Source of the DNA: a candidate division WOR-3 bacterium
GTDB lineage: Bacteria > Hydrothermota > Tepidihabitantia > Tepidihabitantales > Tepidihabitantaceae
Direction: 5' to 3'
NCBI GenBank assembly: GCA_026418295.1
Contig: JAOABP010000005.1
Coordinates: 100,864 to 164,863, forward strand
Length of the DNA: 64,000 nucleotides
Made by a program: the position numbers and the translations under genes. The notes under the pieces are model-generated. The model was not told the origin of the DNA. It ran no database searches and saw only the letters and a program-made list of their open reading frames with translations. Positions within the stretch are counted from its first letter, which is position 1, and each line of letters opens with the position of its first letter. Below are positions 15,414-49,570 of this stretch, one piece after another.

Positions 15414-15426
15414 GGGAGGTTCCAAA

Positions 15427-36154: not shown

Positions 36155-36620
36155 ACTTGAAATTTCACCTTTCTGACGAAGACCGGTAATGATATCACCA
36201 GAACAGGAGCCGGCAGGAGGACACAGGTGACCGGCGAGAACACACTATGGGAAGCCGGGCAGACAGCAGAACCGAAAACCGGGGGCGAGATAGGGGTTGA
36301 ACTGGAATGCGGAGTCCGGCCGGGTTTGAGACCGGCGTCAGGCTTCAGATCGAGCGTCGGGGCAGGACCTGCAGCCGGACCAGGGCTAGCCCCCGGCTCC
36401 CCCCTCCGAAGCAAATTCCGGGTAAAAATTAGTTTAAGTTCCAGCCTGATAAGTACTTGGAGGCAGAAGTTAAACGGCACATCAATAAGATACCGGTGCG
36501 CAGGCAGAAGTGGAGGAGAGGTGGGTAAATGAGAGGTCCAGTTTAACCGGACACTTGGGCGGTTTGTTTCCGGTTGCGGTCAGACAGTCAATCTGCGGGT
36601 GTATTATTCCTTAAATTTTC

Positions 36621-36648
36621 TTGACTTGTGACCTTGCTGGTTTATCAT
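36621..36648 (+). promoter_or_regulatory. Sigma70-like promoter TTGACT-16-TATCAT, 11 nt upstream of the hdrC ATG (short-leader transcript of the hdr super-operon)
   Basis: TTGACT at 36621-36626, TATCAT at 36643-36648, ATG at 36660. No SD in between. Confidence 0.4.
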
Positions 36649-36659
36649 TTTTTCTTAGC

Positions 36660-37052
36660 ATGAGTTCACAGGACAACTCCCAGCTTGTTTCCCAAATTGA
36701 AGAGTTGAGCGGTCAGCGAGTCAGTGACTGTTACCAGTGCGGATGCTGTACTGCGGGCTGTCCGGTCGGCGAGCTGATGGACCCGCCGCCGAGCCGGGCG
36801 ATCCGGCTGCTGCAGCTGGGCCGGGCGCAGGAGCTTTTGGCAAGTGAAGGTATCTGGGTGTGTGCGAGCTGTCTCGTGTGCGGGACCCGCTGTCCGCGCA
36901 ATGTGGATTATGCCAAAATTGCCGAGGCGTGCCGGGCACTGATTCTGCGGGCAAAGCGGAGTCAGGTTGATCCCGATGTGGTGGATGATCAGGACCTGCA
37001 GGATGTGCCTCAGCAGGCATTTATCGCCAGTTTCCGGAAGTTTTCGGTATGA
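36660..37052 (+). CDS. hdrC: Heterodisulfide reductase subunit C-like (2x[4Fe-4S])
   Basis: CYQCGCCTAGCP and CASCLVCGTRCP motifs. The ATG at 36660 is preferred over the upstream TTG, which lies inside the -35 box. Confidence 0.8.
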   Translation: MSSQDNSQLVSQIEELSGQRVSDCYQCGCCTAGCPVGELMDPPPSRAIRLLQLGRAQELLASEGIWVCASCLVCGTRCPRNVDYAKIAEACRALILRAKRSQVDPDVVDDQDLQDVPQQAFIASFRKFSV

Positions 37053-37906
37053 AATATCCCTACTATCCAGGCTGTACCCTTTATTCCAAGGCAAGGAATC
37101 TTGACCGGTGCGGCCGGCTCGCAGCGGCGCGGGCCGGTTTTGAGCTTGAGGAGCTGCCCTCGTGGAACTGCTGTGGCGCAATTTACAACACCAATACTGA
37201 TGATCTGGCAGCTCAGGTCGGACCGGTTCGCGTGCTGGCCAAGGCAAGTCAGCAGGGCAGACGGCTGGTGACCCTGTGCGCCGCCTGTTACAATGTGCTG
37301 AAGCGGGCAAATGAGCGACTCCATGCCACCGGTTTTGAGCAGGACCGGCAGCGGATTCTGGAGTTTGTTGATGAGCCGTTTGAGCAGGATGTTGAGGTTG
37401 TGCATTACCTTGAGGTGCTCAAGGAGCTGGGCTGGGATGCGATCCGGCAGCGGGTGGTGCGTTCGCTGAACGGTCTGAAGGTGGCATCCTACTACGGCTG
37501 TCTGATGGTGAGACCCAGGGAGGTGCTGAAGTTTGACGATCCGGAGAACCCGGTGGTGATGGATGAGCTGATGGCGACATTGGGGGGAGAGCCGGTGCGG
37601 TTTGATTTCAAGGCGGAGTGCTGTGGCGGGTATCTGGTGATAAACCGCCGGGCGGTTGCCGATGCCTGTTCCCTGCGGGTGGTGGAGAATGCCCGGACCT
37701 GGGGAGCGGAGGCAATTGTGACCACCTGTCCGCTCTGCCAGTACAATCTGGAGAGCGCCCAGTTGCGCCGGGGAACGGTATTGACGCCGGTTTTTTATTT
37801 CACTCAGATTCTCGGTCTGGCGCTGGGACTGGAGCCGGCAGAGCTGGGCTTTGAGGATAACAAACTGGACCCGGTGCCGTTTCTGAAGGAGAAGGGGCTC
37901 TTGTGA
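37049..37906 (+). CDS. hdrB: Heterodisulfide reductase subunit B-like (two CCG domains)
   Basis: Two Cys-rich CCG motifs (NCCGAIYN, CCGGYL with flanking Cys). ATGA overlap with hdrC. Confidence 0.85.
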   Translation: MKYPYYPGCTLYSKARNLDRCGRLAAARAGFELEELPSWNCCGAIYNTNTDDLAAQVGPVRVLAKASQQGRRLVTLCAACYNVLKRANERLHATGFEQDRQRILEFVDEPFEQDVEVVHYLEVLKELGWDAIRQRVVRSLNGLKVASYYGCLMVRPREVLKFDDPENPVVMDELMATLGGEPVRFDFKAECCGGYLVINRRAVADACSLRVVENARTWGAEAIVTTCPLCQYNLESAQLRRGTVLTPVFYFTQILGLALGLEPAELGFEDNKLDPVPFLKEKGLL

Positions 37907-39843
37907 AGCGCCGGATCGGAGTCTTTGTCTGTCACTGCGGGATCAACATTGCGGGTGTGGTGAAGGTGCCGGAGCTGGTTGAGCGGGCAAAAAATATTCC
38001 CGGGGTGGTGACGGCGCTGGATTATGTCTACTGCTGTTCGGATCCGGGACAGCGGTTGATCCGGGAGACAATTCAGAAGGAGCGGCTGGAGGGGATTGTG
38101 GTTGCCTGCTGTTCGCCCAATCTCCATGAGGCAACCTTCCGCAAGGCGGCAGCCGAAGCCGGACTCAATCCGTATCTCTGTGAAATTGCCAATATCCGGG
38201 AGCAGTGCTCCTGGGTGACTTCAGACCGGGATGCTGCCACTGAGAAGGCGGAGGGTATTGTCAGGACGATGGTGGCAAAGGTGAGCCATGATCAGCCGCT
38301 TGTCCGGCTTGGTGTGCCGATTGTCAAGCGGGCGCTGGTGGTTGGAGCAGGAATTGCCGGCATCCAGGCGGCGCTGGACATTGCCAACGCCGGATATGAG
38401 GTGGTGCTGGTGGAGAAGGAGCCGTCAATCGGCGGACACATGGCTCAGCTTTCCGAGACCTTTCCGACGCTCGACTGCTCCCAGTGCATTCTGACCCCGA
38501 AGACGGTGGAGGCGGGCCGTCATCCGAAAATCAGGCTTCTGACCTATTCCGAGGTTGCCGAGGTCTCCGGGTTTGTGGGCAATTTCCGGGTGAAGATCCG
38601 GCAGAAGCCGCGCTATGTTGACCTTGACGCCTGCACCGGCTGTGGCATCTGTCTGGAGAAGTGTCCGGTGCGGGTGGAGTCGGTGTTTGACCGGAATCTG
38701 ACCCGGCGCCGGGCGATCTATCGGCTCTTTCCGCAGGCGGTGCCGAACAAGGTGGTGATTGATGCCCAACACTGCCGGCAGTTGCAGGGCAAAAAATGCG
38801 GGGTGTGTGCCAAGGTCTGTCCGGCGCAGGCAATCCGGTATGATGACCAGGAGCGGATTGTTGAGGAGGAGGTAGGGGCGATCGTGCTTGCTACCGGCTA
38901 TGAGCTTTTTGACAGCCGCCGGCTCGGTGCCTACGGGCTCGGGGTGGTGCCGGATGTAATTGACAGTCTCGCCTTTGAGCGCATCCTTTCCGCCTCCGGA
39001 CCGTTTGCCGGTGAGGTGCGCCGGCCTTCGGATGGCAGGGTGCCCAAGCGGGTGGTCTTTGTCCAGTGTGCCGGTTCCCGGGATTCAAATCAGGGTGTGC
39101 CCTACTGTTCGAAGATCTGCTGCATGTATACCGCCAAGCATGCCCTGCTTTACCGGCACCGGGTGCATGATGGTGAGGCGGTTGTCTGCTATATTGATGT
39201 CCGGACCCCGGGAAAGGGGTTTGAGGAGTTTTACCGCCGGGCAACGGATGAAGGTGTCCAGTATCTCCGGGGTAAGGTGTCCAAGATCTTCCGGCGCGGA
39301 GACCGGGTGGTGGTCTGGGCTGCGGATACGCTGGCGGGCAAGAAGCTGGAGATTGAGGCGGATATGGTGGTGCTGGCGAGTGCGGTGGTGCCCAATCCTG
39401 ACGGTGTAGCGCTGGCACGCAGGCTGAAGATACCGGTTGACGGCTGGGGGTTTCTGTCTGAAGCCCACCCGAAACTCCGGCCGGTGGAGACCCTGACCGC
39501 CGGTTTCTTCCTCTGCGGTTGCGGTCAGGGACCGAAGGACATCCCCGAGACGGTGGCACAGGCGTCAGGTGCTGCTGCCAAGGTGCTGGCGATGTTCGGC
39601 CAGAGTGAGCTGTATCATGAGCCGGTGACCGCAGTGGTGGATGAGGAGATTTGCGTCGGGTGCGGCAACTGTGAGCGCACCTGTGCCTATGAGGCGGTCC
39701 GGGTTGATCCGCACCGCGGCAAGGCGGTGGTGCAGGCGGTGATGTGTGAAGGGTGTGGTGCCTGTTCGGTTGCCTGCCCGGCAGGAGCGATCAACCTGAA
39801 GAACTTCACCAAGCAGTCGCTGACCGAAATGGTGGATGTATGA
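37903..39843 (+). CDS. hdrA: Heterodisulfide reductase subunit A-like (FAD, multiple Fe-S)
   Basis: N-terminal VFVCHCGINIAGVV…YCCSDP domain, FAD-binding ALVVGAGIAGIQAALD, ferredoxin-type Cys clusters, and CSKICCMY. 646 aa. Confidence 0.9.
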   Translation: MKRRIGVFVCHCGINIAGVVKVPELVERAKNIPGVVTALDYVYCCSDPGQRLIRETIQKERLEGIVVACCSPNLHEATFRKAAAEAGLNPYLCEIANIREQCSWVTSDRDAATEKAEGIVRTMVAKVSHDQPLVRLGVPIVKRALVVGAGIAGIQAALDIANAGYEVVLVEKEPSIGGHMAQLSETFPTLDCSQCILTPKTVEAGRHPKIRLLTYSEVAEVSGFVGNFRVKIRQKPRYVDLDACTGCGICLEKCPVRVESVFDRNLTRRRAIYRLFPQAVPNKVVIDAQHCRQLQGKKCGVCAKVCPAQAIRYDDQERIVEEEVGAIVLATGYELFDSRRLGAYGLGVVPDVIDSLAFERILSASGPFAGEVRRPSDGRVPKRVVFVQCAGSRDSNQGVPYCSKICCMYTAKHALLYRHRVHDGEAVVCYIDVRTPGKGFEEFYRRATDEGVQYLRGKVSKIFRRGDRVVVWAADTLAGKKLEIEADMVVLASAVVPNPDGVALARRLKIPVDGWGFLSEAHPKLRPVETLTAGFFLCGCGQGPKDIPETVAQASGAAAKVLAMFGQSELYHEPVTAVVDEEICVGCGNCERTCAYEAVRVDPHRGKAVVQAVMCEGCGACSVACPAGAINLKNFTKQSLTEMVDV

Positions 39844-42800
39844 GCGGTAATGGTGATCAGAGACCGATGACCGGTGCGGCGCTGGTGGTCGGCGCGGGAA
39901 TTGCCGGCATTCAGACAGCCCTGGAGCTGGCAGAGTCCGGTTTCAAGGTCTATCTTGCCGACTCCTCACCGGCGATCGGCGGGGTAATGGCGATGCTGGA
40001 CAAGACCTTCCCGACCAATGACTGTTCGATGTGTATCCTGGCACCGAAGCTGGTGGGTACGGGCCGGCATCCGAATATTGAACTTCTGAACTGTGCGGAA
40101 CTGCTGGAATTAAAGGGTGAGCCGGGTAATTTCATTGCCCGGATCCGGCAGCGGCCGCGGTATGTACTTCTGGAGAAGTGCACCGGCTGTCTGGACTGCA
40201 CCAAGGTCTGTCCGGTCCGGGTGCCGGATGAATACAATCAGCGGCTCTCGGAAAGGGGTGCGATTTATAAACGTTTTGCCCAGGCGATTCCCAATGCGGT
40301 GGCGATTGACAAGGGTGAGCGCCGGGCACCCTGCCGGCTTGCCTGTCCGGCCGGGGTTAATGCCCAGGCTTATATCGCCCTGACCCGCGCCCGCAGATTC
40401 AAGGAGGGTTATCTCAAGGTCCGGGAACGGCTGCCATTTGTCGGCATCTGCGGCCGGGTGTGTCATCACCCGTGTGAACAGGAGTGTAACCGGCAGCAGG
40501 TTGATGGTGAGCCGCCGGTGGCGATCCGGACAATCAAGCGGTTTCTTGCCGACTATGCGGCATCTCAGGGTGGTGTGCCCTACCCGGCACCGGCAGCGGA
40601 ACGGGAGGAGCGGATTGCGGTTATCGGTGCCGGACCGGCAGGGCTGACCTGCGCGCTGGATCTGCGGCTTAAGGGTTATCAGGTCACCGTTTTTGAGGCT
40701 GCGGACCAGCCCGGTGGCATGATGCGCTGGGGAATTCCTGCCTACCGCCTGCCGCGGAATGTGCTCGATCAGGAGATTAAGGATATACTTGATACCGGAA
40801 TTGAGCTGAAGCTGAATACACCGGTCAGAACAACCGCGGAACTGCAGGAGTTGCGCAATCAGGGCTATCGGGCGGTTTTTGTTGCCCTTGGTGCCCAGCG
40901 CAGCCGGACCCTGAATATTCCGGGTATGGAGCTTGAGGGGGTTTTGCACGGAATTGAGTTTTTGCGCCAGGTTAACCGGGGTGAGGCGCCGGCGGTGGGC
41001 AGGCGGGTGGTGGTTATTGGCGGTGGCAATGTGGCGGTGGATGTGGCGATGTGTGCCCGGCGCGCCGGTGCCGAGGAAGTAACGATGGTGTGTCTTGAGC
41101 AGCGGGAGGAGATGCCGGCGCACGAATGGGAGATTGAGGAGGCGCTGGCTGAGGGCATCAAAATCATGCCGGGCTGGGGTCCGGCAGCGATCCGGGGAGA
41201 AAACGGCAGGGTCAAGGGTCTGGAGACGGTAGAATGCGTCCGGGTGTTTGATGAACAGCGCCGGTTCAATCCGGCGTTCAACCCGGAGCATACCGGATTT
41301 GTGTCCGCAGATACGGTAATTCTGGCAATCGGACAGCAGGTGGCGGCTGAAGGGTTTGAAGGCATTGAACGGGGACCGGGCGGAACATTCAGGGTTGATC
41401 CGGTGACGCTGGAGGTCAGCGGGCTGGAAGGTGTTTTTGCCGGTGGCGATCTGGTGAGCGGACCGGCATCAGTAATTGAGGCGGTCCAGGCCGGGCATGA
41501 GGCGGCGATTTCTATTGACCGTTTTATCCGGGGGGAGGATCTGCGTGCAGGCAGACCGGAGCCGAAGCCGGAGAAGGCAAAGGTCGAAGACTCTGCCGCT
41601 TACCGGACCGGAATCAGAAAACAGCCACGGACCGGGGAACCGGTTCTGCCGCCTGGTGAACGCAGTGGTGAGCGGGAGATTAACCTTGGTTTCTCTGAGG
41701 AACAGGCGGTCCTTGAGGCACAGCGGTGTCTGGACTGCGGAGTGTGCTGTGAGTGTCTGCAGTGTGTTGCCGCCTGTGAAGCAGGGGCAATTGATCACCT
41801 CCAGCAGGCGCAGGAGCGGGAGCTGCAGGTGGGGGCGGTGGTTCTTGCCGGCGGGTTCACCGAGCACAAGCCGGTTGCTGATGTCAGTCTGGGATATGGC
41901 CGGCATCCGAACATTATCACCAGTCTGGAGTTTGAGCGAATCCTTTCCGCCACCGGTCCTTACGAGGGGCATGTGCGCCGGCCTGGAGACCGGACTCAGC
42001 CGAAGAAGATCGCCTGGGTGCAGTGTGTGGGGTCAAGAAATCAGGAGCATTATTACTGTTCTTCGGTCTGCTGCATGTTTGCAACCAAGGAGGCGGTGAT
42101 CGCCAAGGAGCACTGCCTCGGTGATCTGGAGTGCCATATCTACTATATGGACATGCGCTGCTTCGGTAAGGGGTTTGAGCGCTATTATGAGCGGGCGGAA
42201 AAGGAATACGGTGTGGTCTTCCGCCGGTCAAGGGTGAGTGCAATCCGTGCTGTGCCCGATTCCGGTGATCTGATTATCTCCTATGAGGATGAACAGGGTC
42301 AGCTTCATGATGAGGTTTATAATCTGGTGGTGCTCTCGAGTGCGCTCGTGCCCAGCCCGGAGATGAGAAGTCTCTGCGAACGGCTCGGGGTCAAAACCGA
42401 TGAACAGGGTTTTGTCCAGACCGAGAGCTACTATCCGGTGGCGACGAGCCGGAGTGGTGTTTTTGCCTGCGGTGTGCTGACCGAGCCCAAGGACATTCCG
42501 GAGACGGTCACCGAAGCGACCGGCTGTGCTGGTGCGGTTGCCGGGCTGCTCAGTCCTGCCCGGAATACACTGGTGAGCAGGAAGAGTTATCCTGCGGAGC
42601 GGGATGTTACTCTGGAGGAGCCGAGGATCGGGGTTTTTGTCTGTAACTGCGGGATCAATATTGGCGGGGTGGTGCGGGTGCCGGAGGTGGTGGAGTATGC
42701 CCGGACCCTGCCCGGTGTGGTGCATGCGGAGGAAAACCTGTTTACCTGTTCCCAGGATACCCAGGAGAAGATCAAGCGGGTGATTCAGGAGCAGAGGTTG

Positions 42801-44285: not shown

Positions 44286-44319
44286 AAGGCAAATCTTGGT
44301 GCGCGGCAGGAGGTGACAG

Positions 44320-44739
44320 ATGAGCTTTGAACCCAAAATTGTTGGTTTTCTCTGTAACTGGTGCACCTATGCGGGTGCGGATCTGGCAGGAACTTCACGG
44401 CTCCAGTATCCGCCGAATATGCGGCCGATCCGTGTGATGTGTTCCGGGGCGGTGGATTCGGTTTACATCCTCCGGGCACTGCTGGAAGGGGCAGATGGGG
44501 TCTTCATCGGCGGTTGTCATCCGGGTGACTGCCATTATGTTTCCGGTAACTACAAGACCAGGCGCCGGATGGTGCTGTTCAATTCAATCATGCGGGCGCT
44601 CGGGCTGGATGAAGGGCGGGTGCTATTGCGCTGGATATCCGCTGCAGAGGGTAAGAAATTTGCCGATACGGTAACGGAGATGACTGAGCGGTTGCGTCAG
44701 CTCGGTCCCAGTCCGTTCCGGAAGCTGTGGGAGGTGTGA
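44320..44739 (+). CDS. mvhD: MvhD/FlxD-like methyl-viologen-reducing hydrogenase delta subunit homolog ([2Fe-2S] electron-transfer subunit)
   Basis: IVGFLCNWCTYAGADLAG…CSGAVDSVYILRALLEGADGVFIGGCHPGDCHY is the MvhD signature. SD AGGAGGTG lies upstream. Confidence 0.85.
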   Translation: MSFEPKIVGFLCNWCTYAGADLAGTSRLQYPPNMRPIRVMCSGAVDSVYILRALLEGADGVFIGGCHPGDCHYVSGNYKTRRRMVLFNSIMRALGLDEGRVLLRWISAAEGKKFADTVTEMTERLRQLGPSPFRKLWEV

Positions 44740-44740
44740 T

Positions 44741-45880
44741 TTGGGCAAGATCGGTCTGCTGCCAGTAAAGGATAACCGTCCGATTCAGACGCTGCGTGAA
44801 CTTTTTGTCCGCTGGCTGGAATCGGGTCGTGTGTCTGCTCTGCTGGTGCCGGCGGTTTCCCCTGCTGGGATAGCGGCGCCGGTGCTCTGGTCTGATCCGG
44901 AGAAAGCATCCCAGATTTATCCGCTTCTGCCGGTGATGGGAATTAACAGTGCCGGTGTGGTGGCAGAGATTGCTGCGGATAAGGCGGAAGGCAGCCGGCT
45001 GGGAGTGGTATTAAGACCGTGTGAGCTGCGGGCGGTGGTGGAGCTGATTAAGCTTCAGCAGATTGCCCGGGACAATCTGGTGCTGATCGGCGTGGACTGT
45101 GCGGGAACATACAAGCCGACTACATTGGTAAATGAGCTCAAAAGTGATGCAGGGGAACTTGAGAACTGGATTACCGGGTTTCTGACCGCTCAGGACCGGT
45201 ATCTGAAGGATGAGCGGTTACGCCGAGCCTGTCAGCTGTGTGAATTTCCGGTTCCGCTCGTTTATGATGTGGCGCTCGGCTTTCTCGGGGTCAATCCGAA
45301 GGAACAGCTGCTGATTCAGTCTGCCAGTGAGCTGGGAGATATGCTGCTGTCCGAAGTGAACATTTCGCCCGTTGCAGCAGTGCCGGCAGAGAGGCAGGTG
45401 TATCTCGACCATTTCATTCAAAACCGCCAGGAGCAGGCAGTCAGGATGATTGCCGATTTTGACCGGACTGCTCTCGGCCCGGAAAAGCTGGTGCGCTATT
45501 TTGCCCACTGCATCAACTGCCATAACTGCATGAAGGTGTGTCCGGTCTGTTACTGCCGGGAATGTTTCTTTGACTCGGAGGTTCTGAAGCGGGACCTGGA
45601 TGGTTATATCCGGGTGTCCCGGCGTAAAGGGCTGAACCGGATGCCGGCAGATACACTGCTGTTTCATCTGACCAGAATGAACCACATGATGACCTCCTGT
45701 GTCCAGTGTGGCATCTGTGAGGATTCCTGTCCAGCCGGGATCGGTCTGAGCGTCATGTTCAGGAAGGTTTCCCGGGAGGCGCAGGCAGCATTTGAATATC
45801 TGTCCGGTCGCTCGCTTGAGGAGCCGTTGCCGCTGACCACCTTCCGGGAGGATGAGTTCCGGCAGATCGGGGAGGATTAG
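44741..45880 (+). CDS. FrhB/FdhB-family-like Fe-S flavoprotein (coenzyme F420 hydrogenase/dehydrogenase beta-subunit-like) with C-terminal 2x[4Fe-4S]
   Basis: N-terminal domain with LRPCELRA-type motif. C-terminal CINCHNCMKVCPVCYC and CVQCGICEDSCP. TTG or ATG start immediately after the mvhD stop. Confidence 0.55.
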   Translation: MGKIGLLPVKDNRPIQTLRELFVRWLESGRVSALLVPAVSPAGIAAPVLWSDPEKASQIYPLLPVMGINSAGVVAEIAADKAEGSRLGVVLRPCELRAVVELIKLQQIARDNLVLIGVDCAGTYKPTTLVNELKSDAGELENWITGFLTAQDRYLKDERLRRACQLCEFPVPLVYDVALGFLGVNPKEQLLIQSASELGDMLLSEVNISPVAAVPAERQVYLDHFIQNRQEQAVRMIADFDRTALGPEKLVRYFAHCINCHNCMKVCPVCYCRECFFDSEVLKRDLDGYIRVSRRKGLNRMPADTLLFHLTRMNHMMTSCVQCGICEDSCPAGIGLSVMFRKVSREAQAAFEYLSGRSLEEPLPLTTFREDEFRQIGED

Positions 45881-45882
45881 TC

Positions 45883-46554
45883 ATGGCAGAACTGCTCCTG
45901 AACGAACTGGATGCCGGTTTCAAGCACCGGATTGCAGAACGGATGGGCGATGACAGTTTTCTCAACTGTTTTGCGTGCGGTTCCTGCACCGCCTCCTGTC
46001 CGGTGCGCCGGCTGGAGGAAAAATACAATCCCCGCCGGCTGATCAGGATGGCGATTCTGGGAATGAAGGAGGAGGTTTACCGCTCGGAATTCCTCTGGCT
46101 CTGTTCCTATCACTCTACCTGCCATTATCGCTGTCCGCAGAAGGTGAATATCGGAGCAGTCTGTGATGCGGTGGTGCGGATCCGGCAGGAGCGGGACGAA
46201 AACCACTGGCCGGCAGGTCCCTCCCGCGAGTTTCGCCAGCGGGTGCTGCGGGAGGTTTCTGGCGTGAGCGCCTGTTTTGTCTGCGGAACCTGCACCGCGG
46301 TCTGTCCCGAAAGTTTTCTTGATCCTTCGCGGGATCCAAGAAAGTTCATCCGCAAGGTCAATCTCGGTCTGGCACAGGCGGCACTGGCCGATGAGTTCAA
46401 GGATATCTGCGCCACCCATTTCCGGTGTGAGAGCCGCTGTCCGCAGGGGGTGAAGATCAGCCGGGTGATGCAGGTGCTGCGCGAGCTGGCGCTGGAAGAC
46501 GGTTTTTCCTGTCCCGAATCGTTAAACTTTCTGAAAAACCAGACAGATGAGTGA
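45883..46554 (+). CDS. HdrC-like protein with duplicated 2x[4Fe-4S]-type domains
   Basis: Two halves, each with CxxCxxCxxxCP plus a second Cys motif (CFACGSCTASCP…CHYRCP; CFVCGTCTAVCP…CESRCP). 223 aa. Confidence 0.7.
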   Translation: MAELLLNELDAGFKHRIAERMGDDSFLNCFACGSCTASCPVRRLEEKYNPRRLIRMAILGMKEEVYRSEFLWLCSYHSTCHYRCPQKVNIGAVCDAVVRIRQERDENHWPAGPSREFRQRVLREVSGVSACFVCGTCTAVCPESFLDPSRDPRKFIRKVNLGLAQAALADEFKDICATHFRCESRCPQGVKISRVMQVLRELALEDGFSCPESLNFLKNQTDE

Positions 46555-49500
46555 GCCGAAATTTTCGGACCGGGTGTTAGTTATCGGTGGCGGGATCGGC
46601 GGTGTTCAGGCAGCGCTTGATCTCGCCGATACCGGCAGAAAGGTTTATCTGGTGGAAAGTGCGCCGGCGATTGGTGGCTATATGGCGATGCTGGATAAAA
46701 CTTTTCCCACCAATGACTGTTCGATGTGCATTCTCAGCCCCAAGCTGGTCAGCTGTGCCCGCCATCCGAATGTGGAGCTGATGACATTGAGCCAGCTGGT
46801 GACCATCAGCGGTGAGCCGGGCAGGTTTCGGGTGCGGATTGTCCGCCATGCCCGCTCGGTGGATCTTTCCCGGTGCACCGGCTGTGGTGACTGTCTGGAG
46901 AAGTGTCCGGTCAAGGTGCCGAATGAGTTTGAGGGCGGTCTGGCTCAACGCCGGGCAATCTACCGGCTGTATGCTCAGGCGGTACCCAATGCACCGGTGA
47001 TTGACCGCCGTTTCTGCCTCAAATTCACCAAGGACCGGTGTGGTAACTGTGCACGGGTGTGCAAGGCCGGGGCGATTGATTACAGCCAGCAGGATGAGGA
47101 GATTGAACTGGAAGTCGGTGCGGTGATTAACGCAAGCGGCAGTGTGATTGTTGATCCGCAGCTCCGAAAGGAGTTCGGACACCGGCGCCTCGCCAATGTG
47201 GTTACCGCACTGGAGTTTGAGCGTATCCTTTCCGCCTCCGGTCCTTATTCCGGGCATGTCCTTCGACCTGGTGATGGTAAGGAGCCGAAACGCATTGCCT
47301 GGGTTCAGTGTTTCGGTTCCAGGGATGAGTCAATTGATCACGGTTACTGTTCCTCAGTCTGCTGTATGTATGCGGTCAAGGAGGCGGTGATCGCCCGGGA
47401 GCACAATCCGGCGATCGAACCGACAATTTTCTATATGGACATCCGGGCTTACGGTAAGGAGTTTGACCGCTATATTGAACGGGCACAGAAGCAGTACAGG
47501 GTGAGATTCGTCCAGGCAAGGGTGGCGGAAATTCTTGAGCAGAAGGAGAATGGGGGGCTGATTGTCCGCTACGCTGATAATGGTGGTCAGCGTTCTGAGC
47601 TGTTTGATCTGGTAGTACTGTCCTGCGGGCTCAGTGCCCGGGAATTTACAGGTATGACGGTGAAAGTGGATAGTACCGGATTTCCCGTAACCAGGCTGAC
47701 CGAGCCGGTCAGCAGTTCCAGTGCGGGGGTATTTCTGGCAGGCAGCTGTGCAGTGCCGGTGGCGATCCCCGAGACGGTGATGGCGGCATCAGCAGCAGCA
47801 CTGAAGGCGATGACGCTGACCGTTCCGGCGGCGAAAGCCGTATCTGAAGAGCAGGGTGGTTCTGAACTTGATGTTGCCGGTGCCGCTCCCCGGATCGGTG
47901 TTTTTGTCTGCAACTGCGGGATTAATATCGGCGGAGTAGTGCGGGTGCCGGAGGTGGTGGAGTATGCCCGGACACTGCCCGGAGTGGTGTATGCAGAAGA
48001 GAATCTCTATTCCTGTTCGGCGGATACGCTGACGAAGCTCAAGCAGAGGGTCAGGGACTATAATCTGAACCGGGTGGTGGTGGCATCCTGTTCTCCCCGG
48101 ACGCACGAGCCGCTGTTCCAGCAGACACTGGCTGAAGCAGGACTGAACCCGCATCTGTTTGCGATGGCAAACATCCGGGACCAGTGTTCCTGGGTGCATC
48201 CGGACCGGGATAGGGCAACGGAAAAGGCAAAGGATCTGGTCAAGATGGCGGTCGCCAGGGTACGCCGGCAGCTACCGCTCAAACCGGTGAAACTGCCGGT
48301 TACCAGGGCGGCGCTGGTCGTCGGTGGCGGTATCAGTGGTATGGCGGCAGCGCTGGCGCTTGCTGACACCGGCGTTGATGTTTGTTTGGTGGAGCGGGAG
48401 CCGGTTCTCGGGGGTATGGCAAGAAGGATTTACGAGACAATTGAAGGCGAGGATGTCCAGCGGCTTCTGGCAGAAATGGTGGCGCAGATAAAATCGCATC
48501 CCCGAATCCGGATTTTTACCGAAGCGGAAATCAGGCGCATCAATGGCTTTGTCGGTTCATTTGAAACTACGGTTGCAGTTGCGGGCAGAGAGGAGATAGT
48601 GCGTCACGGGGTTGTGATTGTTGCCACCGGTGCTCAATACCGTCAGCCTGACGAATATCTTTATGGACAGGATCCGAGAATCCACACCCAGCAGGAGCTG
48701 GAGGAGATTGTTGCCCGCCAGCCTGAGGAGCTGAAGCGATTGGATACCGTAGTTATGATTCAGTGTGTCGGTTCGCGGGAGGGGGAGCATAACTACTGTT
48801 CCCGGGTCTGCTGTACTGAGGCAGTCAAGAATGCGCTGGCAATCAAACGCATTAATCCGGATTGCGATATTTACATTCTTTACCGGGATATCCGCACCTA
48901 TGGCACACTGGAGCGATATTACCGTCAGGCACGGGAGGCGGGGGTGATATTTGTCCGCTATGAGGAGACGGATAAACCTCAGGTGAAAGTGTCTGAGGGA
49001 AAACTGCAGGTTGAACTGCTCGAACCCGTACTGAAGATGCTCCTGAGGCTGCAGCCGGATTGGCTGATTCTCTCCAGTGGAGTAACGCCTTATGCCGATG
49101 CCTCAATACTGGGACAGTTGCTGAAGGTGCCGTTGCAGCAGGACGGATTTTTCCTTGAGGCGCATGCCAAGCTCCGGCCCGTGGATTTTGCCACTGAAGG
49201 GGTATTTGTTGCCGGGATGTGCCGTTATCCCAAGTTCATCCCCGAGGCGGTGGCATCGGCACAGGCGGCTGCCGGCAGGGCGGCAACCGTTCTCGCCCGG
49301 GAGTATATTGAGGCTGAACCCTATCAGGCGGTGGTTAATCCGGAGCGCTGCTCTGCCTGCGGGATGTGTGAAAAACTGTGTGCCTATCGGGCAATTGAAG
49401 TGCAGGTGATTGATGAGCGTTCCGGCAGGCGGGCAGCAGTTGTCAATCAGGCGATGTGCAAGGGCTGTGGTGCCTGCGCCGCCAACTGCCGGTCGGCGGC

Positions 49501-49570
49501 AATTGATATCCGGGGTTTTGTTGCCGAAAACATCAGTCGTGAGCTTGCCGCACTTTTTGCCGAAGATTAA
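46547..49570 (+). CDS. Tandem HdrA-like / HdrA-like fusion protein (1007 aa)
   Basis: Module 1: VLVIGGGIGGVQAALDLADTG with ferredoxin clusters. Module 2: VFVCNCGINIGGVVRVPEVVEYARTLPGVV, ALVVGGGISGMAAALALADTG, CSRVCCTE and a C-terminal ferredoxin. Overlaps the upstream gene by 8 nt. Confidence 0.8.
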   Translation: MSEPKFSDRVLVIGGGIGGVQAALDLADTGRKVYLVESAPAIGGYMAMLDKTFPTNDCSMCILSPKLVSCARHPNVELMTLSQLVTISGEPGRFRVRIVRHARSVDLSRCTGCGDCLEKCPVKVPNEFEGGLAQRRAIYRLYAQAVPNAPVIDRRFCLKFTKDRCGNCARVCKAGAIDYSQQDEEIELEVGAVINASGSVIVDPQLRKEFGHRRLANVVTALEFERILSASGPYSGHVLRPGDGKEPKRIAWVQCFGSRDESIDHGYCSSVCCMYAVKEAVIAREHNPAIEPTIFYMDIRAYGKEFDRYIERAQKQYRVRFVQARVAEILEQKENGGLIVRYADNGGQRSELFDLVVLSCGLSAREFTGMTVKVDSTGFPVTRLTEPVSSSSAGVFLAGSCAVPVAIPETVMAASAAALKAMTLTVPAAKAVSEEQGGSELDVAGAAPRIGVFVCNCGINIGGVVRVPEVVEYARTLPGVVYAEENLYSCSADTLTKLKQRVRDYNLNRVVVASCSPRTHEPLFQQTLAEAGLNPHLFAMANIRDQCSWVHPDRDRATEKAKDLVKMAVARVRRQLPLKPVKLPVTRAALVVGGGISGMAAALALADTGVDVCLVEREPVLGGMARRIYETIEGEDVQRLLAEMVAQIKSHPRIRIFTEAEIRRINGFVGSFETTVAVAGREEIVRHGVVIVATGAQYRQPDEYLYGQDPRIHTQQELEEIVARQPEELKRLDTVVMIQCVGSREGEHNYCSRVCCTEAVKNALAIKRINPDCDIYILYRDIRTYGTLERYYRQAREAGVIFVRYEETDKPQVKVSEGKLQVELLEPVLKMLLRLQPDWLILSSGVTPYADASILGQLLKVPLQQDGFFLEAHAKLRPVDFATEGVFVAGMCRYPKFIPEAVASAQAAAGRAATVLAREYIEAEPYQAVVNPERCSACGMCEKLCAYRAIEVQVIDERSGRRAAVVNQAMCKGCGACAANCRSAAIDIRGFVAENISRELAALFAED

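What the first reader, a model, noticed from the sequence alone, without database searches (positions are those of the whole stretch)
36660..49570. Eight-gene super-operon encoding three multi-module HdrA proteins (including a 1481-aa HdrA-GltD-HdrA fusion) with HdrB, HdrC, MvhD and an FrhB-like subunit, but no hydrogenase or formate dehydrogenase
All eight genes are co-directional with overlapping or near-zero junctions (ATGA overlaps at 37049, 37903 and 39840; 2-3 nt gaps at 44739/44741 and 45880/45883; an 8-nt overlap at 46547). Together they encode at least five HdrA-type FAD/Fe-S modules, one GltD-like NAD(P)H-binding module, one HdrB (CCG), two HdrC-like ferredoxins, one MvhD and one FrhB-like flavoprotein. 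Canonical flavin-based electron-bifurcating Hdr complexes pair HdrABC with MvhAGD hydrogenase, formate dehydrogenase or Flx/Flox modules. Here the only obvious electron-input module is the internal GltD-like domain, plus the FrhB-like subunit. The stoichiometry (five HdrA modules to one HdrB) and the fusion architectures are unusual. This looks like an undescribed NAD(P)H-linked, possibly confurcating or bifurcating, Hdr-type megacomplex.
Basis: partly seen in the sequence, partly recalled or inferred. Interest (0 to 1): 0.85.

Follow-up and report, generated by a model that had tools for sequence, protein, structure and literature searches.

The report
NADH-linked Hdr operon with HdrL
This is a real, conserved eight-gene operon of an uncultured WOR-3 bacterium that combines a standard heterodisulfide reductase (HdrABC) with two fused double-HdrA proteins, one carrying a built-in NAD(P)H-binding domain. 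The building blocks were already named in genome papers ("HdrL", tandem HdrA), but none of these enzymes has been purified or assayed.

Summary
Eight co-directional genes (36660-49570, + strand) with overlapping or near-zero junctions encode HdrC, HdrB, HdrA, a 1481-aa HdrA/GltD/HdrA fusion, MvhD, an FdhB-like protein, a doubled HdrC-like protein and a 1007-aa tandem HdrA. No hydrogenase, formate dehydrogenase or Flx gene was found among the ORFs scanned in the 64-kb window.

The large ORFs are not misassemblies. Full-length relatives (45-97% identity) occur in WOR-3, many Desulfobacterota, Chloroflexota, Bacillota, Planctomycetes, Acidobacteria, Asgard, Bathyarchaeia and Thermoplasmatota.

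"Undescribed" is wrong for the parts. The fusion is "HdrL" (D. autotrophicum 2009; the HdrABC/HdrL cluster of S. fumaroxidans 2018). It is also called "type III HdrA" or HdrA-NfnB (ANME-1, 2022 and 2025). The tandem HdrA is "type II", comparable to BamE and the Moorella HdrA. All functional proposals for HdrL are predictions.

New here:
- The eight-gene combination is seen only in WOR-3 among the loci I examined.
- g4 is a g8-like pseudo-dimer with GltD inserted into its ferredoxin domain.
- Its pyridine-nucleotide site carries Leu-Glu where NADPH enzymes carry Arg-Arg, which suggests NADH.

Best reading: an NADH-linked, flavin-based electron-bifurcating or confurcating disulfide reductase system with an unknown thiol substrate. 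Whether it forms one megacomplex is unproven. Interest is moderate.

The parts
36621..36648 (+). Promoter-like site TTGACT-16 nt-TATCAT, ending 11 nt before the g1 ATG. There is no Shine-Dalgarno sequence, so the transcript would be nearly leaderless.
   Evidence: 10 of 12 matches, the best site in the region; the block AAATTTTCTTGACTT...TTATCATTTTTTCTT is conserved in the WOR-3 relative L086, while the rest of the ~500-nt spacer has diverged. This is a consensus match plus conservation; no transcript data exist.
36660..37052 (+). g1: HdrC-like ferredoxin subunit (130 aa), with two CxxCxxCxxxCP motifs.
   Evidence: Fer4_8, Fer4_17. (TIGR03290 HdrC at 59 bits, below the cutoff of 160). (motifs at residues 24 and 68).
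37049..37906 (+). g2: HdrB-type subunit (285 aa) with two CCG domains. This is the only disulfide-reducing catalytic subunit in the operon.
   Evidence: PF02754 CCG, two stretches, E 2.4e-17. (TIGR03288 HdrB at 143.8 bits and SdhE at 153.8 bits, both below their cutoffs). The Cys motifs C..CC..CxxC appear twice in the translation.
37903..39843 (+). g3: canonical four-domain HdrA (646 aa). It has the N-terminal cluster domain, the FAD/TrxR-like domain with DCSQC and CxGSR..CxxxCC-x4-K, the inserted ferredoxin domain and the C-terminal ferredoxin domain.
   Evidence: NF040770 at 793 bits over residues 4-645..
39840..40319 (+). g4 (HdrL) module M1, first part (residues 1-160). It contains the FAD-binding GxGxxG, the DCSMC pair (C62/C65) and the first half of the inserted ferredoxin domain. 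It has no N-terminal cluster domain.
   Evidence: In selenoprotein homologues C65 aligns with a TGA codon.
40320..41711 (+). g4 GltD/NfnB-like insert (residues ~161-624). It contains the Fer4_20 region, expected to hold two [4Fe-4S] clusters as in NfnB/GltD (family knowledge, not checked here), a FAD Rossmann motif (GAGPAG), R303 (equivalent to Arg187 of T. maritima NfnB) and an NAD(P)H Rossmann motif GGGNVA followed by V-C-L-E420.
   Evidence: Fer4_20 at 162-243; Pyr_redox_2 at 258-552. (PRK12771 at 546 bits, residues 155-684). (9BOV_A, 9N5U_A, 8OH5_C, 4YLF_B, 5JCA_L). (aligned motifs). (E420 and R303 invariant in 14 homologues).
41712..42614 (+). g4 module M1, second part (residues 625-925). 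It contains the second half of the inserted ferredoxin domain (CCECLQCVAAC) and the rest of the TrxR-like domain with CVGSR..CSSVCC-x4-K. It has no C-terminal ferredoxin domain.
   Evidence: (residues 631-851 align to HdrA 8RVU_a residues 296-517).
42615..44285 (+). g4 module M2 (residues 926-1481). It has the N-terminal cluster domain, an FAD domain lacking both DCSxC and the inserted ferredoxin domain, the CVGSR..CSRVCC-x4-K motif, and the C-terminal two-cluster ferredoxin domain.
   Evidence: (residues 925-1098 align to 5ODC_A residues 1-174).
44320..44739 (+). g5: MvhD-type [2Fe-2S] adaptor (139 aa).
   Evidence: FlpD, E 5.6e-54, full length. (VhuD at 139 bits; also matches the C-terminal MvhD part of the HdrA2 model at 175 bits).
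44741..45880 (+). g6: FdhB-like (FrhB family) iron-sulfur protein and probable flavoprotein (379 aa), with no FdhA partner.
   Evidence: FdhB chains of the Fdh-Hdr complexes: 9T1S_M at 2.9e-29, 8RVU_E at 3.6e-27, 7BKB_E at 3.2e-22, aligned over residues 81-368. (FrhB_FdhB_C at 25.1 bits). Flavin binding was not tested.
45883..46554 (+). g7: doubled HdrC-like protein (223 aa). Each half has CxxCxxCxxxCP plus CxxHxxCxxxCP, so His replaces the second Cys of the second motif.
   Evidence: TIGR03290 at 124 bits, two stretches. (alignment to HdrC 8RVV_C: CSYHSTCHYRCP against CTTCYSCQERCP). (the same His in WOR-3 L001 and in Clostridia MAG L012).
46547..47881 (+). g8 module M1 (residues 1-445). It has the FAD domain with DCSMC, an intact inserted ferredoxin domain and the CFGSR..CSSVCC-x4-K motif. 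It has neither the N-terminal domain nor the C-terminal ferredoxin domain.
   Evidence: 52% identical to g4 M1..
47882..49570 (+). g8 module M2 (residues 446-1007). It has the N-terminal cluster domain, an FAD domain without DCSxC or the inserted ferredoxin domain, and the C-terminal ferredoxin domain.
   Evidence: 55% identical to g4 M2..

Best explanation
The operon encodes a soluble, cofactor-rich, Hdr-type flavin-based electron-bifurcating/confurcating system of a WOR-3 bacterium. Its pyridine-nucleotide entry point is built into an HdrA subunit.

Shown by sequence:
- One HdrB with both CCG cluster sites intact.
- One canonical HdrA.
- Two paralogous pseudo-dimeric tandem HdrAs (g4 and g8).
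- An NfnB/GltD-like FAD + FeS module spliced into the inserted ferredoxin domain of g4.
- An MvhD adaptor.
- An FdhB-like protein without FdhA.
- A doubled HdrC-like protein.

Inferred mechanism:
- NADH is favoured over NADPH because Leu-Glu replaces the Arg-Arg that contacts the 2'-phosphate.
- NADH is oxidised at the GltD-insert FAD.
- Electrons pass through the insert's two [4Fe-4S] clusters and the split ferredoxin-domain clusters to an HdrA-type FAD.
- That flavin splits electron pairs between a high-potential branch (TrxR-domain cluster, then HdrC, then HdrB, which reduces a disulfide or persulfide of unknown identity) and a low-potential branch that ends at ferredoxin.
- Ferredoxin would be reached through the intact inserted ferredoxin domains of g3 and/or g8. 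MvhD, the FdhB-like protein and the doubled HdrC-like protein would serve as wires between modules.
- The system may run in reverse.

Functionally this would be an analogue of FlxABCD-HdrABC, with HdrL taking the place of, or adding to, the Flx NADH-dehydrogenase module.
For: - Domain and motif content.
- All five HdrA modules keep the Lys five residues after the CC motif. This is the Lys409 that contacts N5 of the bifurcating FAD in HdrA (PMC6405883). The non-bifurcating FAD of BamE has Gln there (bioRxiv 10.64898/2026.04.10.717634).
- g4 R303 aligns with NfnB Arg187 at the flavin N5 and is invariant in 14 homologues.
- NAD(P) site: NADPH-dependent relatives (NfnB, Stn, NfnABC-type) read V-Y-R-R, whereas g4 reads V-C-L-E, and E420 is invariant. 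The family splits 40 YRR to 31 C/S-L/P-E, as expected for a specificity switch.
- The 2nd Cys of the DCxxC pair is selenocysteine (TGA) in Desulfobacteraceae-type homologues, which indicates redox chemistry at that residue.
- HdrL is followed by MvhD in at least 40 of 58 species loci with enough downstream sequence. HdrC and HdrB are often adjacent to it.
- In WOR-3 L087 the same eight genes directly follow flxDCBA-like genes. In L001 they adjoin NuoE/F-like genes. This places the operon in NADH/ferredoxin redox metabolism.
- Tight gene junctions and a conserved promoter-like site only upstream of g1 fit co-expression.
- The literature proposes the same kind of function for HdrL and type III HdrA (PMC2702500, PMC5947623, PMC12054007, PMC9012536).
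Against: - No member of the HdrL family has been purified or assayed, so every step of electron flow is inference.
- The GltD module sits exactly where canonical HdrA hands low-potential electrons to ferredoxin. NAD(P)H could therefore be a product or a low-potential-branch partner rather than the donor.
- Its FAD could also be a second bifurcation site (PMC9012536).
- Nucleotide specificity rests on a motif rule only. The family-wide GxGxxA motif and the closest solved relatives are of NADPH type.
- The HdrB substrate is unknown. CoM-S-S-CoB is implausible in a bacterium, and representative WOR-3 genomes are reported to lack dsr genes (PMC12542636), so DsrC is doubtful too.
- The role of FdhB-like g6 without FdhA, in a bacterium with no evidence of F420, is unexplained.
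- Sub-modules occur separately elsewhere, so a single complex is unproven.
Confidence: 0.5

Rival explanations
1. The operon does not encode one megacomplex. It encodes two or three separable enzymes that are only co-transcribed: (i) HdrABC (g1-g3); (ii) HdrL-MvhD-FdhB-like (g4-g6); (iii) doubled HdrC-like protein plus tandem HdrA (g7-g8). They might share ferredoxin or NADH as diffusible intermediates.
For: -: the units occur independently. HdrL-MvhD stands alone in many Desulfobacterota. C-B-L-D occurs in Chloroflexi and Planctomycetes. L-D-F-C-B occurs in Syntrophales and Smithella. A2x-D-F or CC-A2x-F occur without an adjacent HdrL.
- tandem HdrA lies near HdrL in only 6 of 70 loci, and a single HdrA in only 3 of 70.
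- In L001 the gene order is shuffled and HdrCB lies after g8.
Against: - Across WOR-3 species with 65-97% identity in g4, all eight gene types stay together with tight junctions.
- There is only one HdrB for three HdrA-type proteins.
- g7 and g8 alone have no obvious substrate site.
- The BCRII and Fdh-Hdr-Mvh precedents show that such modules do assemble into very large complexes.
Confidence: 0.35
2. The system acts on sulfur rather than on an organic heterodisulfide. HdrB would reduce, or in reverse form, a protein-bound persulfide or polysulfide (TusA/DsrE-type carrier or free polysulfide) using NADH. This could be the missing cytoplasmic sulfur reductase of WOR-3.
For: - HdrL is flanked by DsrE and TusA genes in Cloacimonas MAG loci L002 and L003, which also carry a GcvH-like/HdrC fusion.
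- HdrL is also flanked by DsrE and TusA in WOR-3 bacterium 4484_100, locus L088.
- A cultured WOR-3 strain is reported to reduce elemental sulfur, although representative genomes lack dsr and psr. A SudA (GltD-like) route was suggested (PMC12542636).
- From my own knowledge: GltD-like SudA was first described as a sulfide dehydrogenase.
Against: - No DsrE, TusA, LbpA or rhodanese gene was found among the ORFs scanned in this 64-kb window, or next to the operon in L086, L087 or L001.
- The association is seen in a minority of loci.
Confidence: 0.2
3. The system is a transhydrogenase-like or ferredoxin:NAD(P)+ oxidoreductase in which the NfnB-like FAD is the bifurcating site. The HdrA flavins would replace NfnA as the second branch, and HdrBC would be regulatory or vestigial.
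For: - The insert is most similar to the NfnB-like modules of Stn and NfnABC-type enzymes and to NfnB itself.
- It keeps the N5-contacting Arg.
- Chadwick et al. noted that such proteins have two potential bifurcation sites (PMC9012536).
Against: - HdrB has both CCG motifs intact and is conserved beside HdrL in many lineages.
- No second pyridine-nucleotide site (NfnA/FNR-like) is present in the window.
Confidence: 0.1
4. The system is F420- or formate-linked, like the archaeal type II HdrA-FdhB clusters, with g6 as the F420H2 dehydrogenase site.
For: g6 is a full-length homologue of F420-dependent FdhB. Archaeal type II HdrA clusters with FdhB are proposed to use F420 (PMC12054007, PMC9012536).
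Against: - The organism is a Gram-negative-type bacterium of WOR-3.
- There is no FdhA and no F420-related gene among the ORFs scanned in the window.
- Some FrhB-family members use ferredoxin rather than F420 (from my own knowledge: BciB, HCAR).
Confidence: 0.04
5. The long ORFs are assembly or frameshift artefacts that join separate genes.
For: None found.
Against: - g4 is 97% identical over its full length to an independent MAG protein.
- More than 100 protein clusters cover at least 98% of it.
- 80 species genomes carry full-length relatives.
- g8-length homologues (1007-1042 aa) follow in L001, L086 and L087.
Confidence: 0.01

Closest known systems
HdrABC/HdrL cluster of Syntrophobacter fumaroxidans (Sfum_0819-0824) and HdrL-MvhD loci of Desulfobacterium autotrophicum HRM2
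   Same: - Both have an HdrA/GltD ("glutamate synthase") fusion followed by mvhD.
- In S. fumaroxidans the cluster also includes hdrABC and an FdhB-like FeS protein, which covers six of the eight gene types found here.
- It is proposed to be NADH-linked and confurcating (PMC2702500, PMC5947623).
- Deltaproteobacterial homologues align over the full length of g4 at 46-51% identity.
   Different: - This operon adds a doubled HdrC-like protein with His-substituted motifs (g7) and a second, insert-free tandem HdrA (g8).
- The gene order differs.
- The host is a WOR-3 bacterium, and canonical dsr genes are reported absent from representative WOR-3 genomes, so DsrC is doubtful as the substrate.
- g4 has Cys where the Desulfobacteraceae-type proteins have Sec.
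- I could not fetch the Sfum or HRM2 sequences themselves, so the equivalence rests on the published descriptions plus related MAG loci.
Type III HdrA / HdrA-NfnB fusions (ANME-1 HdrA9-11; Bathyarchaeota), and type II fused HdrA of methane-metabolising archaea
   Same: - The GltD/NfnB insertion lies inside the inserted ferredoxin domain.
- The fused double HdrA shows complementary loss of the N-terminal domain and of the Cys197-type cysteine (PMC9012536, PMC12054007).
- Archaeal full-length relatives of g4 exist in Thermoplasmatota, Bathyarchaeia and Promethearchaeota.
   Different: - In g4 and g8 the module order is [Cys-pair module]-[N-domain module]. This is the reverse of ANME HdrA3/4 as described.
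- The archaeal authors proposed NADH on the basis of a GXGXXG motif. g4 has GGGNVA, and the NADH argument here rests on Leu-Glu against Arg-Arg.
- Those archaea have CoM-S-S-CoB as an obvious substrate. This bacterium does not.
BamE of class II benzoyl-CoA reductase (BamBCDEFGHI), Geobacter metallireducens
   Same: - BamE is a single polypeptide that is a fused HdrA dimer.
- Its N-terminal TrxR domain carries the bifurcating FAD (Lys at N5) and a Cys59-Cys62 pair. g8 has C58/C61 and g4 has C62/C65 in the N-terminal module.
- An MvhD-like adaptor (BamF) and an HdrBC-like subunit (BamD) are also present (bioRxiv 10.64898/2026.04.10.717634).
   Different: - BamE's second FAD has Gln and is non-bifurcating. 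Both modules of g4 and g8 keep Lys.
- No BamB/C tungsten module is present, and the window has no NuoEFG-like input module (one is present next to the cluster in L001).
FlxABCD-HdrABC (Desulfovibrio vulgaris)
   Same: - It is a soluble NADH dehydrogenase/heterodisulfide reductase with an MvhD-like FlxD.
- It is proposed to couple NADH oxidation to reduction of ferredoxin and a disulfide.
- In WOR-3 L087, flxDCBA-like genes sit directly upstream of the same eight genes.
   Different: FlxA, FlxB and FlxC are absent from the window. NAD(P)H binding is provided by a GltD-type domain inside HdrA, not by an FNR-like FlxA.
MvhAGD-HdrABC and Fdh-Hdr(-Mvh) complexes of methanogens (PDB 5ODC, 7BKB, 8RVU, 9T1S)
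   Same: HdrA, HdrB, HdrC, MvhD and FdhB homologues are all present. These are the best solved-structure matches.
   Different: - MvhA, MvhG and FdhA are absent.
- NCBIfam equivalog cutoffs are not reached (HdrA2 model 793 against 1100; HdrB 144 against 345; HdrC 59 against 160).
- The tandem and GltD-inserted HdrAs have no counterpart in those structures.
NfnAB / StnABC / NfnABC-type GltD-like modules (PDB 4YLF, 5JCA, 8OH5, 9BOV, 9N5U)
   Same: The insert has the same Fer4_20 + FAD + NAD(P)H fold family, at E 1e-63 to 1e-104, and keeps the Arg at the flavin N5.
   Different: - No NfnA partner is present.
- The 2'-phosphate Arg-Arg is replaced by Leu-Glu.
- The module is embedded in an HdrA ferredoxin domain.

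Membership tests
HdrL / type III HdrA (HdrA with GltD-NfnB insertion) | HdrA-type TrxR-like FAD domain with the CxGSR...CxxxCC cluster motif | tested here: met
   g4 has two such domains (C729... and C1223...). HdrA models score 935 bits.
HdrL / type III HdrA (HdrA with GltD-NfnB insertion) | GltD/NfnB-like module inserted between the two cluster motifs of the inserted ferredoxin domain | tested here: met
   the insert lies between CTGCLDCTKVCP (residue 114) and CCECLQCVAAC (residue 636). Searches identify residues 155-684 as GltD/NfnB-like.
HdrL / type III HdrA (HdrA with GltD-NfnB insertion) | mvhD gene immediately downstream | tested here: met
   g5 starts 34 nt after g4. The same holds in at least 40 of 58 related loci.
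HdrL / type III HdrA (HdrA with GltD-NfnB insertion) | Oxidises or reduces NAD(P)(H) | not testable with these tools
   Only motifs are available: GAGPAG and GGGNVA Rossmann motifs are present, and Leu-Glu replaces the Arg-Arg of NADPH enzymes.
Type II / fused tandem HdrA (BamE-like, Moorella HdrA-like) | Two TrxR-like FAD domains in one polypeptide | tested here: met
   g8: GxGxxG at residues 14 and 593, CxGSR..CxxxCC at 255 and 740.
Type II / fused tandem HdrA (BamE-like, Moorella HdrA-like) | Complementary domains: one module has the Cys pair and inserted ferredoxin domain but no N-terminal domain; the other has the N-terminal domain and lacks the Cys pair | tested here: met
   alignment, for both g8 and g4.
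Type II / fused tandem HdrA (BamE-like, Moorella HdrA-like) | The two modules pack like the HdrA homodimer | not tested
   This would need a 3-D model with coordinates or an experimental structure. The tools return no inter-domain geometry.
Canonical CoB-CoM heterodisulfide reductase HdrABC | HdrB with two CCG domains, HdrC with two [4Fe-4S] motifs, four-domain HdrA | tested here: met
Canonical CoB-CoM heterodisulfide reductase HdrABC | Equivalog-level similarity to the methanogen enzymes (NCBIfam cutoffs) | tested here: not met
   HdrA2 model 793 against 1100; HdrB 143.8 against 345; HdrC 59 against 160.
Canonical CoB-CoM heterodisulfide reductase HdrABC | Substrate is CoM-S-S-CoB | not testable with these tools
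   The host is a WOR-3 bacterium. No methanogenesis genes were found among the ORFs scanned in the window.
FlxABCD-HdrABC | FlxA (FNR-like NAD(P)H/FAD subunit) plus the FlxB and FlxC FeS subunits next to hdrABC | tested here: not met
   They are absent among the ORFs scanned in the window. They are present upstream of the same operon in L087 and divergently in L001.
Mvh-Hdr / Fdh-Hdr complexes | Catalytic MvhA/MvhG hydrogenase or FdhA formate dehydrogenase subunit | tested here: not met
   None was found among the ORFs scanned in the window. Only the MvhD and FdhB homologues are present.
Sulfur-oxidising sHdr-like system | Lipoate-binding protein (LbpA/GcvH-like), DsrE3/TusA and two HdrBC pairs | tested here: not met
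   None was found among the ORFs scanned in the window. DsrE, TusA and GcvH-like genes occur only beside HdrL in L002, L003 and L088.
NfnAB transhydrogenase | NfnA (FNR-like, [2Fe-2S]) partner of the NfnB-like subunit | tested here: not met
   No NfnA-like ORF is in the operon.

The most novel reading that the evidence does not exclude
The eight proteins may form one particle that holds several bifurcation-competent flavins in series. These would be the NfnB-like FAD, which keeps the N5 Arg, and up to five HdrA-type FADs, all of which keep the N5 Lys. Such a cascade would couple NADH oxidation to reduction of ferredoxin and of a sulfur-based acceptor (persulfide or polysulfide) at the single HdrB. 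It would then be both the first multi-stage HdrA bifurcation cascade and the missing cytoplasmic sulfur reductase/energy-coupling site of dsr-less WOR-3 bacteria.
Probability: 0.1. Interest if true: 0.85.

Novelty: new variant of a known kind. Interest (0 to 1): 0.5.

Why it matters
HdrA-based complexes are one of the four known families of flavin-based electron bifurcation. HdrL and tandem HdrA proteins are very widespread in anaerobes: at least 80 species genomes across more than 15 phyla in one scan. They are abundant in syntrophs and sulfate reducers, yet no HdrL enzyme has been purified.

This WOR-3 operon gathers a canonical HdrABC, an HdrL, an insert-free paralogue of HdrL, and the connecting MvhD, FdhB-like and HdrC-like subunits in one compact unit that looks co-transcribed. 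It comes without hydrogenase, formate dehydrogenase or Flx modules. That makes it a clean candidate for expression and cryo-EM. Such work could settle three questions:
- what the GltD insert does (donor, acceptor or second bifurcation site);
- what HdrB reduces in bacteria that have neither CoM/CoB nor DsrC;
- whether the Leu-Glu / Arg-Arg dichotomy sets NADH or NADPH use.

It does not overturn current ideas. It offers a well-defined test case for them.

Tried and rejected
- Misassembly or frameshift origin of the large ORFs: rejected.
- Rfam scan of the window: only a tRNA-Leu was found. There is no riboswitch or leader RNA upstream of the operon.
- Rex-box search (TTGTGA-N6-TCACAA, up to 2 mismatches): two hits, both far from the operon and at chance level.
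- Terminator scan: 19 sites against 12.3 +/- 3.9 expected. All sites within the operon lie within coding sequence (one on the - strand falls in the spacer upstream of g1), and none lies between g8 and the archease gene. This gives no evidence for internal termination.
- Hidden hydrogenase, Fdh or Flx genes elsewhere in the 64-kb window: none among 38 ORFs scanned. ORFs 18733-20226(-) and 20506-22287(-) were not scanned.
- A direct alignment to BamE, Moorella HdrA, Sfum_0824 or HRM2 HdrL was not possible. BamE is not in the PDB copy, and the one genome-contig scan did not return those organisms.
- The Pereira 2011 review could not be retrieved.
- My automated count of MvhD downstream of HdrL undercounts, because my ORF caller extends starts upstream (one search compared). 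It is reported as a lower bound.
- Structure prediction was not run. The tools give no cofactor or inter-domain distances, so it could not decide between the competing wiring schemes.
- One protein comparison failed on wrong coordinates.

Full report
**1. What is there**

Between 36660 and 49570 the + strand carries eight long ORFs. I read the junctions directly from the sequence:
- ATGA overlaps at g1/g2 (37049) and g3/g4 (39840).
- A GTGA overlap at g2/g3 (37903).
- A 34-nt spacer with GGAGG before g5.
- A 1-nt gap before the TTG start of g6, with GGGAGGTG upstream.
- A 2-nt gap before g7.
- An 8-nt overlap at g7/g8.

Pfam and NCBIfam and sequence searches against solved structures identify the products:
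- g1: HdrC-like (130 aa, two CxxCxxCxxxCP motifs).
- g2: HdrB (285 aa, two CCG domains with complete Cys motifs).
- g3: a complete four-domain HdrA (646 aa).
- g4: a 1481-aa HdrA/GltD/HdrA fusion.
- g5: MvhD (FlpD, E 5.6e-54).
- g6: an FdhB homologue (379 aa). Its best matches are the FdhB subunits of the Fdh-Hdr complexes 9T1S, 8RVU and 7BKB, at E 3e-29 to 3e-22 over residues 81-368.
- g7: a doubled HdrC-like protein (223 aa).
- g8: a 1007-aa tandem HdrA.

The flanks are housekeeping genes: a 5'-nucleotidase, a DHH phosphoesterase and an RlmI-type methyltransferase upstream; archease, a class-V aminotransferase and LspA downstream. No hydrogenase, FdhA or Flx gene was found among the window ORFs scanned. 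Two ORFs (18733-20226 and 20506-22287, - strand) were not scanned.

**2. Organism and reality of the fusions**

Omp85/POTRA, BamB-like and LspA genes mark a diderm bacterium. g4 is 97% identical over its full length to a protein of a "candidate division WOR-3 bacterium" MAG. The next ~55 hits (64-92% identity), of which those that carry a name are labelled WOR-3 or simply "bacterium", are also full length.

Three further WOR-3 genomes carry the same gene set:
- L086 (80% identity in g4) has the identical eight genes and identical flanks, including the archease gene.
- L087 (72%) has the same eight genes, preceded in the same direction by flxDCBA-like genes (FlpD, two Fer4 proteins, and a NAD_binding_1 + DHODB_Fe-S_bind protein).
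- L001 (65%, complete chromosome CP070680.1) has the order HdrC-HdrA-HdrL-MvhD-FdhB-like-2xHdrC-tandem HdrA-HdrC-HdrB. NuoE-like, NuoF-like and Fer2_4 proteins follow, and flxDCBA-like genes lie divergently upstream.

One scan of one genome per species returned at least 598 related stretches. The best 80 were mostly full-length (~1480 aa, 44-53% identity) relatives. They come from Desulfobacterota (Syntrophales, Smithella, Desulfobacteraceae, Desulfarculus), Chloroflexota, Bacillota (including the cultured Desulfotruncus arcticus), Planctomycetota, Acidobacteriota, Thermotogae, Spirochaetes, Armatimonadota, Atribacteria, Promethearchaeota, Bathyarchaeia and Thermoplasmatota. Misassembly is excluded.

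**3. Anatomy of the HdrA proteins**

Motif mapping and a module alignment show that the "five HdrA modules" are of three kinds.

g3 is canonical.

g8 is built of two modules:
- M1 (residues 1-445) has the FAD domain with the DCSMC pair, an intact inserted ferredoxin domain and the CxGSR...CxxxCC cluster motif. It has neither the N-terminal cluster domain nor the C-terminal ferredoxin domain.
- M2 (residues 446-1007) has the N-terminal domain, an FAD domain without the Cys pair and without the inserted ferredoxin domain, and the C-terminal ferredoxin domain.

g4 has exactly the same M1-M2 build, plus a ~465-residue GltD/NfnB-like module. This module is spliced between the two cluster motifs of the M1 inserted ferredoxin domain, after CTGCLDCTKVCP (residue 114) and before CCECLQCVAAC (residue 636).

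Identities are g4-M1/g8-M1 52%, g4-M2/g8-M2 55%, and M1/M2 only 31-33%. So g4 and g8 are old paralogues of one tandem protein, not recent duplications. Each tandem protein holds one copy of each accessory HdrA domain plus two FAD domains. It is a pseudo-dimer, as proposed for fused archaeal HdrAs (PMC9012536) and as seen in the cryo-EM structure of BamE (bioRxiv 10.64898/2026.04.10.717634). This removes much of the apparent strangeness of "five HdrA to one HdrB".

All five modules keep the Lys five residues after the CC motif. In HdrA this Lys409 contacts N5 of the bifurcating FAD (PMC6405883). The non-bifurcating FAD of BamE has Gln at that position. So none of the five sites can be dismissed as merely structural on sequence grounds.

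**4. The GltD-like insert**

Its closest solved relatives are the NfnB-like modules of large Stn and NfnABC-type subunits (9BOV_A, 9N5U_A, 8OH5_C). NfnB (4YLF_B, 5JCA_L), GltD and dihydropyrimidine dehydrogenase follow.

g4 R303 aligns with Arg187 of T. maritima NfnB, the residue at N5 of the bifurcating FAD (PMC6405883). It is invariant in 14 HdrL homologues.

At the end of the second strand of the NAD(P)H Rossmann fold, the NADPH-dependent relatives read V-Y-R-R. g4 reads V-C-L-E, and E420 is invariant in the alignment. Among 72 HdrL-type ORFs from the fetched loci, 40 have the YRR form and 31 the C/S-L/P-E form.

By the usual Rossmann-fold rule, an acidic residue there binds the ribose hydroxyls of NADH, and arginines bind the 2'-phosphate of NADPH. 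On that rule the window protein belongs to an NADH-type subclass. This is inference, not measurement.

**5. Other subunits**

- **g5-g6** reproduce the MvhD-FdhB "input arm" of the methanogen Fdh-Hdr complexes, but without FdhA.
- **g7.** In both halves the second HdrC motif reads CxxHxxCxxxCP. It aligns with the CxxCxxCxxxCP of HdrC. The His is conserved in WOR-3 L001 and in a Clostridia MAG, L012, where the gene again follows an FdhB-like gene. This suggests His-ligated clusters.
- **The Cys pair.** In Desulfobacteraceae-type HdrL homologues the second Cys of the DCxxC pair (g4 C65) is a TGA codon. This matches the selenoprotein status reported for HdrL1 and HdrL3 (PMC2702500) and points to redox chemistry at that position. 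BamE forms a Cys59-Cys62 disulfide at the equivalent site.

**6. Expression signals**

The best promoter-like site in the region is TTGACT-16 nt-TATCAT at 36621-36648. It ends 11 nt before the g1 ATG, and there is no Shine-Dalgarno sequence. This block is conserved in L086 while the rest of the ~500-nt spacer has diverged. In L087, where flx genes precede the operon, hdrC has a Shine-Dalgarno sequence, and a TATAAT box lies before flxD.

There is no convincing terminator inside the operon, nor in the 24 nt between g8 and the archease gene. A single transcription unit is likely but untested.

**7. Conservation of sub-modules**

I scored ORFs of 85 related loci against the eight proteins.
- HdrL-MvhD is the constant pair: at least 40 of 58 loci with enough downstream sequence. 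This is an undercount.
- HdrC and HdrB lie next to HdrL in many lineages, for example C-B-L-D in Chloroflexi and Planctomycetes and L-D-F-C-B in Syntrophales and Smithella.
- An FdhB-like gene follows MvhD in 12 of 70 loci.
- A tandem HdrA lies nearby in 6 of 70 loci.
- All eight gene types together were seen only in WOR-3.
- In a Cloacimonas MAG (L002, L003) and in WOR-3 bacterium 4484_100 (L088), HdrL is flanked by DsrE and TusA genes.

**8. Most likely function**

The best-supported reading is an NADH-linked, flavin-based electron-bifurcating or confurcating Hdr-type system.
- NADH is handled by the GltD insert of g4.
- Its clusters connect through the split ferredoxin domain to an HdrA-type FAD.
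- One branch leads via the TrxR-domain cluster and HdrC to the only HdrB, which reduces an unidentified disulfide or persulfide.
- The other branch leads to ferredoxin through the intact inserted ferredoxin domains of g3 and/or g8.
- MvhD, the FdhB-like protein and the doubled HdrC-like protein act as connectors.

Functionally this resembles FlxABCD-HdrABC. The flx genes in front of the same operon in L087, and their absence here, fit HdrL being an alternative or additional NADH module.

Caveats:
- The insert occupies the canonical ferredoxin exit, so the direction of electron flow and the identity of the bifurcating flavin are open.
- The HdrB substrate is unknown. CoM-S-S-CoB is implausible, and dsr genes are reported absent from representative WOR-3 genomes (PMC12542636).
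- A single complex is unproven.

I put about 0.5 on this reading. The main rivals are: separable complexes that are merely co-transcribed (0.35; this rival is about architecture, not chemistry); a sulfur/persulfide-reducing role (0.2); an Nfn-like transhydrogenase role (0.1); and F420 linkage (0.04).

**9. Comparison with what is known, and novelty**

- The HdrA/glutamate-synthase fusion followed by mvhD was named HdrL in D. autotrophicum (PMC2702500).
- S. fumaroxidans makes an "HdrABC/HdrL" set (hdrABC, an FdhB-like FeS protein, MvhD, HdrL) abundantly with sulfate, and it is proposed to confurcate (PMC5947623).
- The NfnB insertion and the fused complementary HdrAs were described in ANME (PMC9012536) and were classified as type III and type II HdrA (PMC12054007).
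- BamE is a structurally solved fused HdrA dimer (2026 preprint).
- The WOR-3 survey mentions only mvhADG-hdrABC (PMC12542636).

So the parts and the general idea are known.

What appears new:
- the WOR-3-specific eight-gene combination of all three HdrA kinds with a His-variant doubled HdrC;
- the recognition that g4 is g8 plus an insert;
- the YRR / C-L-E split of the family.

I rate this a new variant of a known kind, with moderate interest (0.5). It is a good experimental handle on an open question, not a surprise.

Noticed in passing
window 49595-50029 (+): An archease gene (PF01951, E 1.5e-40) starts 24 nt after the g8 stop codon, on the same strand and with no terminator-like site between. 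The same adjacency occurs in WOR-3 L086 and L087. It may be co-transcribed with the hdr operon although it is functionally unrelated (archease is an RtcB cofactor).
   Followed up: partly
window 36621-36660; L086 ~6770-6812: A conserved promoter-like block (TTGACT-16 nt-TATCAT) ends 11 nt before the hdrC ATG, with no Shine-Dalgarno sequence. This suggests a nearly leaderless first gene. In L087 hdrC has a Shine-Dalgarno sequence and lies behind flx genes instead.
   Followed up: partly
window 36383-36392: The palindrome GGGCTAGCCC lies in the otherwise diverged ~500-nt spacer upstream of the operon and is conserved in L086. It is the only copy in the window (0.09 expected by chance). It could be a protein-binding site or the remnant of a hairpin.
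   Followed up: partly
window 45883-46554 (g7); L001 16015-16713; L012 1623-2402: Both halves of the doubled HdrC-like protein have CxxHxxCxxxCP in place of the second CxxCxxCxxxCP motif of HdrC. The His is conserved between WOR-3 and a Clostridia MAG, so the clusters may be His-ligated.
   Followed up: partly
L079, L080, L030, L032, L035 (aligned with g4 residue C65): In Desulfobacteraceae-type HdrL homologues the second Cys of the FPTNDCxxC motif is encoded by in-frame TGA (selenocysteine). The window protein has Cys at this position.
   Followed up: yes
72 HdrL-type ORFs in loci L001-L085: The family splits at the NAD(P) 2'-site into a YRR class (40 ORFs, as in NADPH-dependent NfnB) and a C/S-L/P-E class (31 ORFs, including the window and WOR-3). 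This is a likely NADPH/NADH specificity switch.
   Followed up: partly
L002/L003 (Cloacimonas MAG) and L088 (WOR-3 bacterium 4484_100): HdrL is flanked by DsrE and TusA genes. In L002 there is also a response-regulator/GcvH-like/HdrC fusion plus HdrB, and MvhD-MvhG-like genes lie downstream. This hints at a sulfur-carrier link in some lineages.
   Followed up: no
L001 21187-24449: In the WOR-3 chromosome CP070680.1 the hdr cluster continues into a FAD/NuoE-like fusion (434 aa), a NuoF-like protein (617 aa) and a Fer2_4/Fer4 protein (591 aa, cut off at the locus end). This resembles a HydABC- or BamGHI-like NADH/ferredoxin module.
   Followed up: no
window 22651-24822 (+): A patatin-like phospholipase is fused to POTRA and Omp85 domains (723 aa), giving a PlpD-like outer-membrane lipase.
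   Followed up: no
window 51725-52675 (-): A protein combining TackOD1 ("Thaumarchaeal output domain 1") with an Mrr-like restriction endonuclease domain. It is conserved at the same position in L086 and L087.
   Followed up: no
window 12480-18747 (+): Two adjacent very large proteins (977 and 1116 aa) carry beta-propeller/Kelch repeats and a C-terminal Por_Secre_tail (type IX secretion sorting) domain.
   Followed up: no
window 5173-6651(-), 27501-28319(+), 30718-31818(+), 55820-56527(+): These long ORFs have no Pfam match at E <= 1e-4. The 30718-31818 ORF has a same-length counterpart, also without Pfam hits, in L086.
   Followed up: no
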